DNA of 10,931 bases, from the IMG/VR virus record IMGVR_UViG_2534681938_000031; one strand, written 5' to 3'. The stretch's first letter is position 1. Every line of letters begins with the position of its first letter. Below, in pieces: positions 6,001 through 9,000 of this stretch. This DNA comes from a virus (lineage: Duplodnaviria; Heunggongvirae; Uroviricota; Caudoviricetes). Position numbers: made by a program.

Positions 6001-9000
6001 TGGCTAAACATCAAAAAGGCGATGTTGCCAGCGTATCCGGCACGATGCAGGTAAGCCAGTGGACCGGACAGAACGGAGAAACGCGGCAGGGCTGGCAGGT
6101 TATCGCAGACAGCGTAATCAGTGCCCGCGCGGCACGTCCAGGCGGGAACAGACGCAAAACCACAGGCACACAGGGTAATCAGCCACCAGCGGGAGGCGAT
6201 GACCCTTACGGTGATGATATTTCGTTCTGAGGGGGTGACGATGGTACATGACCGCATAGCGGAGGAACTGGAGGCGAAAGGCTTTTACCGGAGGGCGGCG
6301 GCGCGATGGGGTGAAGTCATGCAGCTGGTGGAGACAGACAAGGAACGGCATCACATCACGATGCGACGGCTGGAATGTTCAAGGAAGGCACAGAGGGCAC
6401 CGGAGCCGCCGGATAATTTCGGAGACCTGAAAAAGGCAGTCGATCGCACTTATGCCGAAATGGGTATAGATGGTGCTGGTGATGAAATATGGCGCAATTA
6501 CCAGGACAGCTAATCAAACAGCCGGAGAAATCCGGCTTTTTTTGCACCAGTTGAAACGGTATGGCGCATTACCGGGTTTTCGTCACGGTCAGGCATAGTT
6601 ACTATCTGAAACAAACAGACACAACAGAGGAAAAAACAATGCCGATGAAATTTGATGAGATATTAAAACAGCGTGATAAATACCATGCTGACAACATGGA
6701 GACGATGAGCATCAATGATTACCGCGCATTCCTGGAGACGGGCGCACTGATTGAAAAGGATCAGCATGGTTTTGTGAGATGTGCTCTATCCGGTGAAATG
6801 CTGGCGGTAAATCCTGAACAGATAGATGCATTGATAGAATTTCTGAAAGAGATCAGAGACTGAGCCAGCACACAGCACACATAGCCGGAGCAATCCGGCT
6901 TTTTTGCGCCCAAAAAAAGCCCGATAAGGTCAGAGGGTTCTTATCGGGCTTTTGCATATGAGGTTTTTGGATGCACTGGCGTTCGTGATCGGGATAATCA
7001 TTTCATAATTTGCAACATAACTCAATATCATTGCATAAAATGCAATTCTGATTATAATCAGGACTGGATAAACATCCAGTTATGATTTTTTTAGTCGAAG
7101 AGGAATTTCTTACTATGGCTGAAGAGAAAAAAAGCGGTGTTTCGGTGTACATAAGCCCCGAAATCGTGGAGGTGCTCAAGCAGCGCCACAAAAAAACTAT
7201 GAAGCTGGCGTTGCGGCTGGACTGGATCCGCTGATGACGCCGGAGCCGTCGATAGGTTCACTTGTACGCTCTTATTTACTTGCGGCGCTTGGGATGCATA
7301 AAAATTATGGGGGTGAATAATGGCAGGCAAAGCAACGGCACTTAACACTAACCAGCTTTTCATGTACCTGAATCGCGGGGATATTGCGGATTTTAAATTC
7401 AGCCCTCTGTTTACCACGCTGTTTTTCCCGAACGTGGCGACATTCAGCACGCAAAACATCATGCTGGATACCCTGGACATTGAAGAAGTCACCATGTCGG
7501 CGTTTTGTTCGCCTATGGTGGGTAGCCAGGTTCAGCGCGATAAAGGGTACGAAACCAGCACAATCAAACCTGGCTACATGAAGCCAAAGCACGAAATCGA
7601 TCCAACGAAAACCATCATGCGCATGGCTGGAGAAGATCCGGCACAGCTTAACGACCCTACCTATCGCCGTATGCGCCTGATTACTGGCAACATGCGCCGC
7701 CAGATAAACGCCATTAAGGCACGCGTGGAATGGCTGGCGGTGAATGCGGTAACGACCGGAAAAAACATCATTGAGGGCGAAGGCATAGAACGCTATGAAA
7801 TCGACTGGAAAATACCGGAAAACTGCATCATAGAGCAGGCCAAGGGTAAAAAATGGTCCGAGCAGGATAAAGACATGCACGACCCAATCTATGACATCGA
7901 GCTTTATGCTGATCAGGCTGGTTGCCCCGCAAACGTCATGATTATGGGCGCTGAGGTATGGCGCACATTACGCAGCTTTAAAAAATTCCGTGAGCTGTAC
8001 GATCTTTCCCGTGGTTCAGAATCCGCCGCCGAACTGGCCTGTAAAAACCTGGGCGAAGTGGTGAGCTTTAAAGGCTATCTTGGTGATCTGGCCCTTATCG
8101 TCTATTCCGGCAAATACACTGACAGCGATGGTACCGAAAAATATTTCCTTGAGCCTGATTTGCTGGTCCTGGGTAACACCAACAATAAAGGGCTGGTGGC
8201 CTATGGTGCGATAATGGATCAGGAAGCGGTAAGAACGGGCGCAACACAAAACATGTTTTACCCGAAAAACTGGATTGAGGACGGCGATCCGGCGATTGAG
8301 TACGTGCAGACACACAGTGCACCGCAGCCGGTACCGGCAGATATTCGCAAATTTGTTACCGTCAAAATTGGTTAACGGGGGGATTCTATGGACACTCCAT
8401 ACATTGAGTTATTTGCAGGCAGTCAGCAGGTATCCACGACGTTGGTACATTTTGCCGCTGATGCTGGCGTTATTCAGGAATTTACCCCGCTGATGCTGGC
8501 AGACAATGGCGAGTTTAAGCCGTGGGATGGTCAGGAATCTGGCAAGGCTGTTTATCTGACCTCGTACCCTGTGGACACGTCAAAGCAGAAATCAGCACAG
8601 TGTTACAAGACGGGGATATTCAATATTGCCGCCGTTAACTGGCCTGAGAGCGTCGACACCGATGCGAAAAAATGCGCCGCCTTTGCGGGTTCCGGCGTAT
8701 CCGTTCAGCCGCTGGCCCGATAAGCAGGGGGAACGATGGCAACGAATGAAAGCATCATGACGCTACCGCTGGCGAGTAAATTTAAAGTCGAAGCGCGGGC
8801 AATGGCTGACAGAGGTTTATCAACCTATGAGGCCGTATATCAACTAAACAAACTGGAAGAGCAGGACAAGCCGTGCGCTGATGCGATTATGGCGCTTCAT
8901 GAGCATAAAGACTATCAGCCGCTGTTGCGTGCAATGGCAAACGTGCCTTGTATCGATGTTGGTACGGCTAAAAGCATCCTTAGCATGACCATAGAGCAGG

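What the first reader, a model, noticed from the sequence alone, without database searches (positions are those of the whole stretch)
7030..7079. LexA-box-like palindrome over the +1 of the capsid-operon promoter
CTGGATAAACATCCAG (7064-7079) is a CTG-N10-CAG palindrome with AT-rich centre, lying just downstream of a strong sigma70-like promoter (TTGCAT, 16 bp, TATAAT). The E. coli SOS consensus is CTGT-N8-ACAG, and CTGG/CCAG arms occur in some genuine boxes (the ruvAB box, as I recall). If LexA binds here, the island's capsid genes would respond to the SOS signal that induces the helper prophage. Two further palindromes (7030-7046 over the -35, 7049-7060 over the -10) suggest more regulatory inputs.
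Basis: partly seen in the sequence, partly recalled or inferred. Interest (0 to 1): 0.65.

Follow-up and report, generated by a model that had tools for sequence, protein, structure and literature searches.

The report
LexA box on satellite capsid promoter
A DNA site that scores as a good binding site for the bacterial DNA-damage repressor LexA sits on the start of the capsid-gene promoter of an E. coli phage-parasitic island, so these genes are probably switched on by the same damage signal that wakes the helper virus; this has been shown for Staphylococcus islands, and I found no report of it for E. coli ones.

Summary
Three perfect 7-nt-arm palindromes tile 7030-7080 across a conserved sigma70 promoter (TTGCAT-16-TATAAT).

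The third palindrome, GACTGGATAAACATCCAGTT (7062-7081), has a LexA heterology index (HI) of 7.6. That is better than the proven ruvAB, uvrD, lexA2, cho and polB boxes, and well inside the range (HI <= 12.6) in which every tested E. coli site bound LexA. Chance expectation is about 0.001-0.003 per window.

The window is an O157:H7 relative of the phage satellite EcCICFT073 (a PICI). The box lies about -4 to +16 of the promoter of a lambda E/D/Nu3-like head operon. It is present in all 44 type-A loci sampled (HI 5.4-9.6) and in Salmonella. In a Lelliottia island the positional homologue differs at 7 of 20 bases but still scores 7.6 (P ~ 2e-4 under random substitution), while its hairpin potential collapses.

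Sister promoters lack the box, so it is an optional add-on. A repeated TTGCA-N5-TGCAA element over the -35 is the family-wide feature.

Caveats: no binding or expression data apply to this promoter. The box also sits inside a longer terminator-like palindrome.

Verdict: probable LexA operator, analogous to SaPI operon I. New member of a known kind, moderate interest.

The parts
6883..6905 (+). Intrinsic terminator T1 ending the early (replication) operon
   Evidence: AGCCGGAGCAATCCGGC followed by T6. Present in part of the related islands.
6913..6957 (+). Terminator T2 (A-run, 14-bp perfect arms, T-run). Marks the start of the conserved late-promoter module.
   Evidence: Inverted repeat 6915-6928 / 6940-6953, 100% complementary. 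Conserved in all 11 aligned E. coli loci.
6997..7015 (+). Upstream copy (O2) of a 19-bp operator-like repeat, ATCATTTCATAATTTGCAA
   Evidence: Direct repeat with 7027-7045, 84% identical, 30-bp spacing. Matches TTGCA-N5-TGCAA with one mismatch. Invariant in 25 type-A haplotypes.
7027..7046 (+). Promoter-proximal copy (O1), which includes the palindrome ATTGCATAAAATGCAAT (7030-7046) over the -35 and spacer
   Evidence: TTGCA-N5-TGCAA is kept in E. coli type A and type B, Salmonella and Edwardsiella (two copies there). The binding factor is unknown.
7031..7036 (+). -35 hexamer TTGCAT
   Evidence: Sequence. TTGC is conserved.
7048..7061 (+). 14-bp perfect palindrome CTGATTATAATCAG containing the -10
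   Evidence: The arms (A/C)TGATT / AATCA(T/G) are mostly kept in types A and B.
7053..7058 (+). -10 hexamer TATAAT. The transcription start is inferred at about 7063-7067.
   Evidence: Sequence. Invariant in type A, TAAAAT in type B. The start site is an inference, not mapped.
7062..7081 (.). Predicted LexA operator (SOS box) GACTGGATAAACATCCAGTT; core CTG-N10-CAG at 7064-7079
   Evidence: HI 7.605 with a matrix recovered exactly from published values. Variants in 44 type-A loci score 5.41-9.61. Salmonella scores 7.98 and the Lelliottia positional homologue 7.57.
7056..7094 (+). Extended palindrome AATCAGGACTGGAT-AAAC-ATCCAGTTATGATT plus a T7 run: terminator-like. Its left arm starts inside the -10.
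   Evidence: RNA folding energy is -13 to -20 kcal/mol in type A and Salmonella, and -6 to -8 in type B, Edwardsiella and Lelliottia.
7099..7104 (+). Shine-Dalgarno GAGGAA of the first gene
   Evidence: Sequence. Conserved.
7115..7320 (+). Small first ORF of the operon (phrog_3255, 68 aa when intact). Frameshifted in this window.
   Evidence: Function unknown.
7320..8375 (+). Lambda gpE-family major capsid protein homologue (c1499 type)
   Evidence: PF03864. RefSeq annotation.
8388..8723 (+). gpD-like head decoration protein (c1500 type)
   Evidence: Annotation. PF02924 in homologous loci.
8736..9149 (+). 137-aa protein resembling the C-terminal (scaffold) part of head maturation proteases
   Evidence: phrog_1999 and phrog_53, positions 495-567 of 583.
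9157..9180 (+). Terminator ending the capsid operon
   Evidence: GGCCGGAGAAATCCGGCC-type hairpin followed by T6.

Best explanation
The 20-mer at 7062-7081 is an operator for the host SOS repressor LexA. It lies immediately downstream of the -10 and across the start point of the sigma70 promoter that drives the head-protein operon of an EcCICFT073-type phage satellite. That operon comprises a small ORF, a lambda E-like capsid, a D-like decoration protein and a Nu3-like protein.

In undamaged cells a LexA dimer on the box blocks RNA polymerase. DNA damage activates RecA and LexA cleaves itself, so the promoter is freed at the same time as the resident lambdoid helper prophage is induced.

Shown here: the sequence fit, the position relative to the conserved promoter elements, and conservation with a signature of selection for LexA fit.

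Inferred: the transcription start, actual LexA occupancy, and derepression.

The repeated TTGCA-N5-TGCAA element over the -35 probably binds a second, unidentified factor, so LexA is likely one of at least two locks.
For: 1. HI is 7.605, from a matrix that reproduces 140 published HI values with rmse 1e-5. This is better than ruvAB 9.19, uvrD 8.80, lexA2 8.32, cho 9.54 and polB 12.09.
2. All 19 experimentally tested sites with HI <= 12.6 bound LexA.
3. Chance expectation is 0.0006-0.001 per window.
4. The box starts 4 bp after a perfect, conserved -10. It therefore covers about -4 to +16, a position typical of tightly LexA-controlled genes (PMC8072944).
5. It is present in every type-A locus sampled without reference to the box: 10 E. 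coli genomes across 81-100% identity and about 35 metagenome contigs found with a promoter-only pattern. HI ranges from 5.41 to 9.61.
6. The only core substitutions seen, position 9 A/G and position 15 C/A, are between the two bases LexA tolerates best.
7. The natural ATACAG variant improves HI to 5.41 while the core hairpin drops from -9.4 to -3.5 kcal/mol.
8. The positionally homologous site in a Lelliottia island (alignment A1) differs at 7 of 20 positions, none of them in CTG or CAG, and still scores 7.57. P = 1.6e-4 under random substitution, or 4.6e-4 with AT bias. Its hairpin is only -4 to -6 kcal/mol.
9. There is a precedent for the logic: SaPI operon I is LexA-controlled (Ubeda 2007, cited in PMC6092414).
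Against: - No binding or expression experiment applies to this promoter.
- The start site is inferred.
- Homologous promoters lack the box: type B E. coli islands, Edwardsiella, L104 (CAG changed to CAA) and a capsid-forming island, L011. LexA control is therefore dispensable for the family.
- Within E. coli type A the whole 90-bp region is conserved, so conservation of the box there is not specific.
- The box is nested in a 32-bp palindrome followed by a T-run, with perfect 14-nt arms in CFT073 and one compensatory change in L008. That suggests an additional or alternative structural role.
- Other conserved operators on the promoter may keep it shut even without LexA.
Confidence: 0.65

Rival explanations
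1. The selected feature is a hairpin rather than a protein site. The 32-bp palindrome at 7056-7087 plus the T-run would be a third intrinsic terminator or insulator. It would stop read-through from the early operon into the head genes unless polymerase is made termination-resistant. Alternatively, its inner part would form a 5' stem-loop that stabilises the mRNA. On this reading the LexA-like sequence is a by-product of the stem.
For: - The terminator scan lists 7062-7081 followed by T's.
- The extended stem folds at -13 to -20 kcal/mol and is directly followed by U5-7 in type A and Salmonella.
- CFT073 has perfect 14-nt arms. L008 carries a compensatory C..G in place of T..A just outside the LexA 20-mer. 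Salmonella keeps the outer arms despite an indel.
- Type B keeps a weak CATGAC/GTTATG stem without a LexA box.
- The island encodes an AlpA-family protein, and P. aeruginosa AlpA is a processive antiterminator (PMC7969949).
Against: - The left arm begins inside the -10 hexamer, so transcripts from this promoter cannot form the full stem. From a start near 7065 only a -3.9 kcal/mol stem remains.
- The three bases just 5' of CTG are the most variable positions of the region while their partners are fixed, so about half of the haplotypes break the extended stem.
- The stem base is A-U rich.
- Two good terminators already precede the promoter.
- The Lelliottia homologue and the ATACAG variant keep LexA fit but lose most of the folding energy.
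- A stem does not need CTG-N10-CAG with an A/T-rich centre.
Confidence: 0.15
2. The palindrome is the operator of another symmetric DNA-binding protein, encoded by the island (for example the small first ORF, PerC-like, RgdR or AlpA) or by the helper phage. It only resembles an SOS box.
For: - The promoter carries other conserved symmetric elements whose binding factor is unknown.
- The palindrome extends beyond the 20 bp that LexA needs.
- The half-site TGATT/AATCA recurs at 7050, 7056 and 7083.
Against: - No candidate protein is shared by exactly the islands that have the box. PerC is absent from several type-A islands.
- The small ORF has no recognisable DNA-binding family, and its model is of low confidence.
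- The Lelliottia homologue changes 7 bases yet keeps precisely the LexA-critical ones.
Confidence: 0.07
3. LexA can bind the site, but this has no physiological consequence. Either the promoter is governed entirely by the factor acting at the TTGCA repeats, or the operon is a decaying remnant.
For: - Deletion of the capsid and decoration homologues in EcCICFT073 gave no phenotype (PMC6092414).
- In this window the first ORF and the helicase gene are frameshifted.
- Sister promoters function without the box.
Against: - The site retains its LexA fit across genera.
- Its position directly on the start point makes occupancy without effect unlikely.
Confidence: 0.1

Closest known systems
E. coli ruvAB SOS box (CGCTGGATATCTATCCAGCA)
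   Same: Both half-sites are CTGGAT/ATCCAG rather than CTGTAT/ATACAG. 13 of 16 core bases are identical. It is listed as experimentally bound by LexA.
   Different: The present site has better flanks (A at position 2, T at position 19) and a lower HI (7.6 against 9.19). It lies on a satellite's head-gene promoter, not on a chromosomal repair operon.
LexA control of SaPI operon I (Staphylococcus aureus pathogenicity islands; Ubeda et al. 2007, cited in PMC6092414)
   Same: A phage satellite puts its morphogenesis/packaging operon under the host SOS repressor, separately from the switch that controls excision and replication.
   Different: There is no sequence homology. From my own knowledge, the Gram-positive LexA motif differs. 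SaPI operon I includes terS and the capsid-size genes, whereas here the Nu1-like gene lies outside the operon, beyond a terminator. The SaPI case is experimentally shown; this one is predicted.
EcCICFT073, prototype Gram-negative PICI (Fillol-Salom 2018, 2019)
   Same: Same insertion site (roxA-phoQ) and same gene order. The late promoter region is 84% identical, and the box is present in CFT073 with HI 6.81.
   Different: The papers describe AlpA-dependent induction and Rpp. They do not mention a LexA box or the regulation of c1498-c1501.
LexA boxes just downstream of the -10 in colicin operons and on SOS-inducible prophage genes (dinI of Gifsy phages; PMC8072944)
   Same: Mobile-element genes are tied to SOS by a box overlapping the start site.
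   Different: The gene classes differ. The resemblance to colicin operons rests on my own knowledge and was not tested here.
AlpA-dependent antitermination promoters of Pseudomonas aeruginosa (PalpB; PMC7969949)
   Same: A conserved element lies between -35 and -10: here TGCAAT at about -25 to -20, the position of the AlpA-binding element. A hairpin and U-run lie downstream, and the island encodes an AlpA-family protein.
   Different: The motif is unrelated (GGGACG-N5-GGTA there). The terminator there begins at +54, whereas here its left arm overlaps the -10. No shared motif was found with the alpA-upstream repeats. This is analogy only.

Membership tests
E. coli-type LexA operator (SOS box) | 16-bp CTG-N10-CAG dyad with an A/T-rich centre in a 20-bp frame | tested here: met
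   GACTGGATAAACATCCAGTT at 7062-7081; 14 of 20 bases match TACTG(TA)5CAGTA.
E. coli-type LexA operator (SOS box) | Heterology index within the range of sites shown to bind LexA (<= 12.6; non-binders >= 15.5) | tested here: met
   HI 7.605. Thresholds and validated sites from PSOSP Tables S2 and S3.
E. coli-type LexA operator (SOS box) | Overlaps or abuts a promoter so that binding excludes RNA polymerase | tested here: met
   The box begins 4 bp after a conserved TATAAT. The start site itself is inferred, not mapped.
E. coli-type LexA operator (SOS box) | LexA binds the site in vitro or in vivo | not testable with these tools
   Needs EMSA, footprinting or ChIP. No LexA ChIP data for a strain carrying this promoter were found.
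E. coli-type LexA operator (SOS box) | Downstream genes are derepressed on SOS induction in a recA- and lexA-dependent way | not testable with these tools
   The two EDL933 transcriptomes found concern an island whose late region lacks this promoter.
Phage-inducible chromosomal island, EcCICFT073 type | Integrase, alpA, primase/helicase replicon, helper cos site, about 11 kb, no tail or lysis genes, dedicated att site | tested here: met
   Gene content. Same roxA-phoQ site and synteny as CFT073. cosN-like GGGCGGCGACCTCG present.
LexA-controlled satellite packaging operon (SaPI operon I type) | LexA operator at the promoter of the satellite's morphogenesis/packaging operon, separate from the induction switch | tested here: inconclusive
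   The operator is predicted at the head-gene promoter, behind two terminators that separate it from the alpA operon. There is no homology to SaPI, terS lies outside the operon, and regulation is untested.
Intrinsic (Rho-independent) terminator | Stable stem-loop immediately followed by a U-tract, within a transcript | tested here: inconclusive
   The stem and U-tract are present. However, the left arm lies in the -10, so the structure can form only in read-through RNA. The stem is not kept in half of the haplotypes.
AlpA/Q-type antitermination promoter | Factor-loading element between -35 and -10, plus a downstream terminator that is bypassed when the factor is present | not tested
   Only positional analogy: TGCAAT at about -25 to -20. 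The motif is unrelated to the P. aeruginosa element.

The most novel reading that the evidence does not exclude
The late promoter of EcCICFT073-type satellites is a compact multi-input gate.

- A LexA operator on the start point senses host DNA damage.
- A duplicated TTGCA-N5-TGCAA element lies 30 bp apart, and its proximal copy occupies the -25 to -20 position used by AlpA/Q-type loading sites. It senses a satellite or helper factor.
- A terminator-like hairpin built around the LexA box blocks unmodified read-through polymerase.

Head-gene expression would then require SOS together with a phage- or satellite-specific signal, possibly AlpA acting as an antiterminator as it does in Pseudomonas.
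Probability: 0.15. Interest if true: 0.65.

Novelty: new member of a known kind. Interest (0 to 1): 0.45.

Why it matters
Nothing in the papers I could search says how Gram-negative PICIs control their late (head-gene) operon. What is published is AlpA-dependent induction of the early operon.

A LexA operator on the late promoter would show that E. coli satellites, like staphylococcal SaPIs, wire morphogenesis genes directly to the host SOS response. That would be a case of convergent regulatory design.

It also gives a condition (SOS induction) under which to look for the missing phenotype of the c1499 and c1500 capsid and decoration homologues. The box is carried by roughly 590 of 5,426 complete E. 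coli genomes, including O157:H7, O26, O145, CFT073 and Nissle 1917. SOS-inducing antibiotics would therefore be predicted to switch on these genes widely.

Tried and rejected
1. Published EDL933 transcriptomes. With ciprofloxacin the CP-933C capsid changed -1.8x and the primase +5.3x; in Landstorfer 2014 the capsid RPKM went from 2 to 0 with antibiotics. This looked like evidence against SOS induction. However, the EDL933 island has a different late region (HK97-type capsid, protease, portal) and lacks this promoter and box. The data were rejected as a test.
2. Protein-anchored search of species genomes with the capsid protein found nothing. The promoter pattern in genome contigs gave only chance hits in unrelated AT-rich genomes.
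3. The phage collection had no match to 6960-7120.
4. Rfam had no family anywhere in the window, and no tRNA was found.
5. Idea: the TGCAA motifs are AlpA sites shared with the repeats upstream of alpA. In CFT073 those repeats are (G/A)AACAAC with no TGCAA, so the idea is not supported.
6. Idea: the small first ORF is a ribbon-helix-helix autoregulator that binds the palindromes. It has no Pfam or PDB sequence match. The AlphaFold model has pLDDT 61.6 and pTM 0.34, with two helices after a disordered N-terminus. This is inconclusive, and no fold search was run on such a model.
7. An alternative upstream promoter (TTCATA-18-TATCAT) that would transcribe the full hairpin: its -10 is not conserved among islands.
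8. PerC as the late activator: the gene is absent from several islands that have the same promoter.
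Full report
**What the window is.** The 10.9-kb window is an integrated island between roxA and phoQ of E. coli O157:H7. It is 100% identical to strain F7386 over 6900-7330.

The gene order is: tyrosine integrase, AlpA-family regulator, Icd-like, RgdR/DUF4222, RepA-type helicase (split here), SSB, PerC-family protein, a 74-aa ORF, two terminators, and then the region of the finding. After it come a small ORF (frameshifted here), a lambda gpE-family capsid protein (PF03864), a gpD-like decoration protein, a protein resembling the scaffold end of head proteases, a terminator, and a Nu1-like small terminase between two cos-like repeats.

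The same site and synteny in strain CFT073 identify the island as a relative of EcCICFT073, the prototype Gram-negative phage-inducible chromosomal island (PMC6092414). The 6900-7330 stretch occurs in 591 of 5,426 complete E. coli genomes at 80-100% identity.

**The observation.**
- TTGCAT (7031-7036), a 16-bp spacer, TATAAT (7053-7058).
- Palindrome ATTGCATAAAATGCAAT (7030-7046).
- A perfect 14-bp palindrome, CTGATTATAATCAG (7048-7061, slightly longer than reported).
- ACTGGAT-AAAC-ATCCAGT (7063-7080), containing CTG-N10-CAG at 7064-7079.

Three back-to-back perfect palindromes within 52 bp occurred in 2 of 300 dinucleotide shuffles. The consensus promoter scan missed this promoter because its -35 matches only 3 of 6 bases. 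Even so, the TTGC and the -10 are conserved from Escherichia to Edwardsiella.

**The LexA score.** The supplement of PMC12527982 lists potential SOS boxes of E. coli K-12 with their heterology index (HI). From 140 of these pairs I solved for the position penalties. The fit is exact (rmse 1e-5) and the matrix is symmetric, with consensus TACTGTATATATATACAGTA.

The site GACTGGATAAACATCCAGTT scores 7.605. Proven boxes score as follows: ruvAB 9.19, uvrD 8.80, lexA2 8.32, cho 9.54, polB 12.09. In the validated set of that paper, all 19 sites with HI <= 12.6 bound LexA and all 5 with HI >= 15.5 did not. Their cut-offs are 13.2 and 14.8.

The expected number of sites this good is 0.001 per window with independent bases and 0.0006 with a first-order Markov model. 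Allowing for the 5-fold excess of CTG-N10-CAG in the real sequence (11 observed against 2.2 expected), it is still at most about 0.003.

That box shares 13 of 16 core bases with this one.

**Position.** The 20-mer starts 4 bp after the -10, so it spans about -4 to +16 of the inferred start. This arrangement is reported for tightly LexA-controlled genes (PMC8072944). The start point is an inference.

**Comparative evidence.** I sampled ten E. coli islands across the identity range. I also sampled metagenome contigs found with a pattern that specifies only the -35/-10 region.
- All 44 type-A loci (25 haplotypes) carry the box, with HI 5.41-9.61.
- In the core, only position 9 (A/G) and position 15 (C/A) vary. 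These are the two best-tolerated bases at each position.
- Salmonella islands with 68% capsid identity keep the promoter and a box of HI 7.98.

The strongest evidence comes from a Lelliottia island with 58% capsid identity. The positionally homologous 20-mer (alignment A1) is CACTGTTTTTTCATACAGTT. It differs at 7 positions, none of them in CTG or CAG, and scores 7.57. Seven random substitutions keep HI <= 7.61 with P = 1.6e-4, or 4.6e-4 with AT bias.

The box is not universal. It is absent in:
- a sister 'type B' E. coli promoter (ATTGCAAAAAATGCAATGATGATTAAAATCATGACTGACTTTTCG);
- Edwardsiella;
- L104, where CAG has become CAA;
- more distant islands;
- L011, a capsid-forming island that shares the promoter only up to GACTGG.

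LexA control therefore looks like an optional module added to a common promoter.

**Hairpin or protein site?** The palindrome is longer than LexA needs. AATCA..CTGGAT-N4-ATCCAG..TGATT (7056-7087) is followed at once by T7.

Points for a hairpin:
- As RNA it folds at -13 to -20 kcal/mol in type A and Salmonella.
- CFT073 has perfect 14-nt arms.
- One island (L008) has a compensatory change just outside the 20-mer.
- On its own, this looks like an intrinsic terminator.

Points against that being the selected feature:
- The left arm starts inside the -10 hexamer. An RNA begun at this promoter keeps only a -3.9 kcal/mol stem.
- The three bases 5' of CTG are the most variable of the whole region while their partners are fixed. 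About half of the haplotypes break the extended stem.
- The ATACAG variant and the Lelliottia homologue lose most of the folding energy (-3.5 and -4.1 kcal/mol for the core) yet keep or improve the LexA score.

I therefore rank the terminator/insulator reading as a rival, or as an added role acting on read-through from the early operon, not as the main explanation.

**The other palindromes.** The -35 palindrome is one of two copies of a 19-bp element: ATCATTTCATAATTTGCAA at 6997-7015 and ATCATTGCATAAAATGCAA at 7027-7045, 30 bp apart. Its core TTGCA-N5-TGCAA is the feature shared by all related promoters, including those without a LexA box. Edwardsiella has two perfect copies.

The proximal half, TGCAAT, sits at about -25 to -20. 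That is where P. aeruginosa AlpA, a processive antiterminator, loads onto polymerase (PMC7969949). The island encodes an AlpA-family protein. However, the motifs are unrelated, and I found no shared motif with the alpA-upstream repeats. This remains analogy.

PerC cannot be the required factor, because several islands with the same promoter lack it. The small first ORF has no recognisable family, and its structure model is of low confidence.

**Experimental data.** I found no experiment on this promoter. The EcCICFT073 papers mention LexA only by citing the SaPI operon I paper. They report no phenotype for the capsid and decoration homologues c1499 and c1500. Searches combining PICI or cf-PICI with LexA gave nothing further.

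Two EDL933 transcriptomes seemed to show no SOS induction of the island's capsid gene. However, EDL933 carries a different late region, without this promoter or box. Those data are irrelevant here.

**Verdict.** The site is very probably a genuine LexA operator. I put LexA binding at about 0.8, and physiological SOS control of the head operon at about 0.65. It works like the LexA lock on SaPI operon I and like start-site boxes on other mobile-element genes.

It is a new member of a known kind. It is not described in the literature I could search, and it is directly testable. Interest is moderate. The more novel possibility is a combined SOS, operator and antitermination gate, which I give a probability of about 0.15.

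Noticed in passing
window 9179-9226 (+) and 10071-10118 (-): A perfect 48-bp inverted repeat containing a lambda cosN-like core (GGGCGGCGACCTCG) flanks the Nu1-like small-terminase gene (9355-9897). In the related island L015 the Nu1-like gene is on the opposite strand, so the segment may invert between the two cos-like copies.
   Followed up: partly
window 1259-1278: A second, weaker LexA-like site, TACTGGATATGCGAACAGAT, with HI 11.58 (expected 0.013-0.018 per window at HI <= 11.6, by the Markov models). It lies 29 bp after the integrase stop and about 336 bp upstream of alpA. It is also present in EDL933 (L098 41588) but absent in CFT073. In EDL933 the island's primase rose 5.3-fold with ciprofloxacin.
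   Followed up: partly
window 1279-1325; L002 1935-1995: A run of 4-7 short repeats, (G/A)AACAA(C/T), at about 10-bp spacing just downstream of int, conserved as a motif between the O157 and CFT073 islands. They are possibly binding sites for AlpA or the recombination machinery.
   Followed up: no
window 3972-5371 and 7115-7320: The RepA-family helicase gene is split into two overlapping ORFs, and the small first ORF of the head operon is frameshifted relative to other islands. This copy of the satellite may be partly decayed.
   Followed up: partly
L098 (EDL933) 47820-48140 and L011: O157:H7 strains carry at least two versions of this island at the same site. EDL933 CP-933C has an HK97-type capsid/protease/portal late region with an unrelated upstream sequence. 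L011 joins the TTGCA promoter to that late region, with the junction exactly at GACTGG, the left edge of the LexA box.
   Followed up: partly
window 7082-7117: An ATG at 7082, inside the right arm of the extended palindrome, is in frame with the small ORF's ATG at 7115 but has no Shine-Dalgarno sequence. It is GTG in L008. It is probably not used.
   Followed up: no
window 6241-6513: A full-length PerC-family activator gene (PF06069, E 4e-43) lies just upstream of the late promoter module in some islands but not in others. Its native target in the satellite is unknown.
   Followed up: partly
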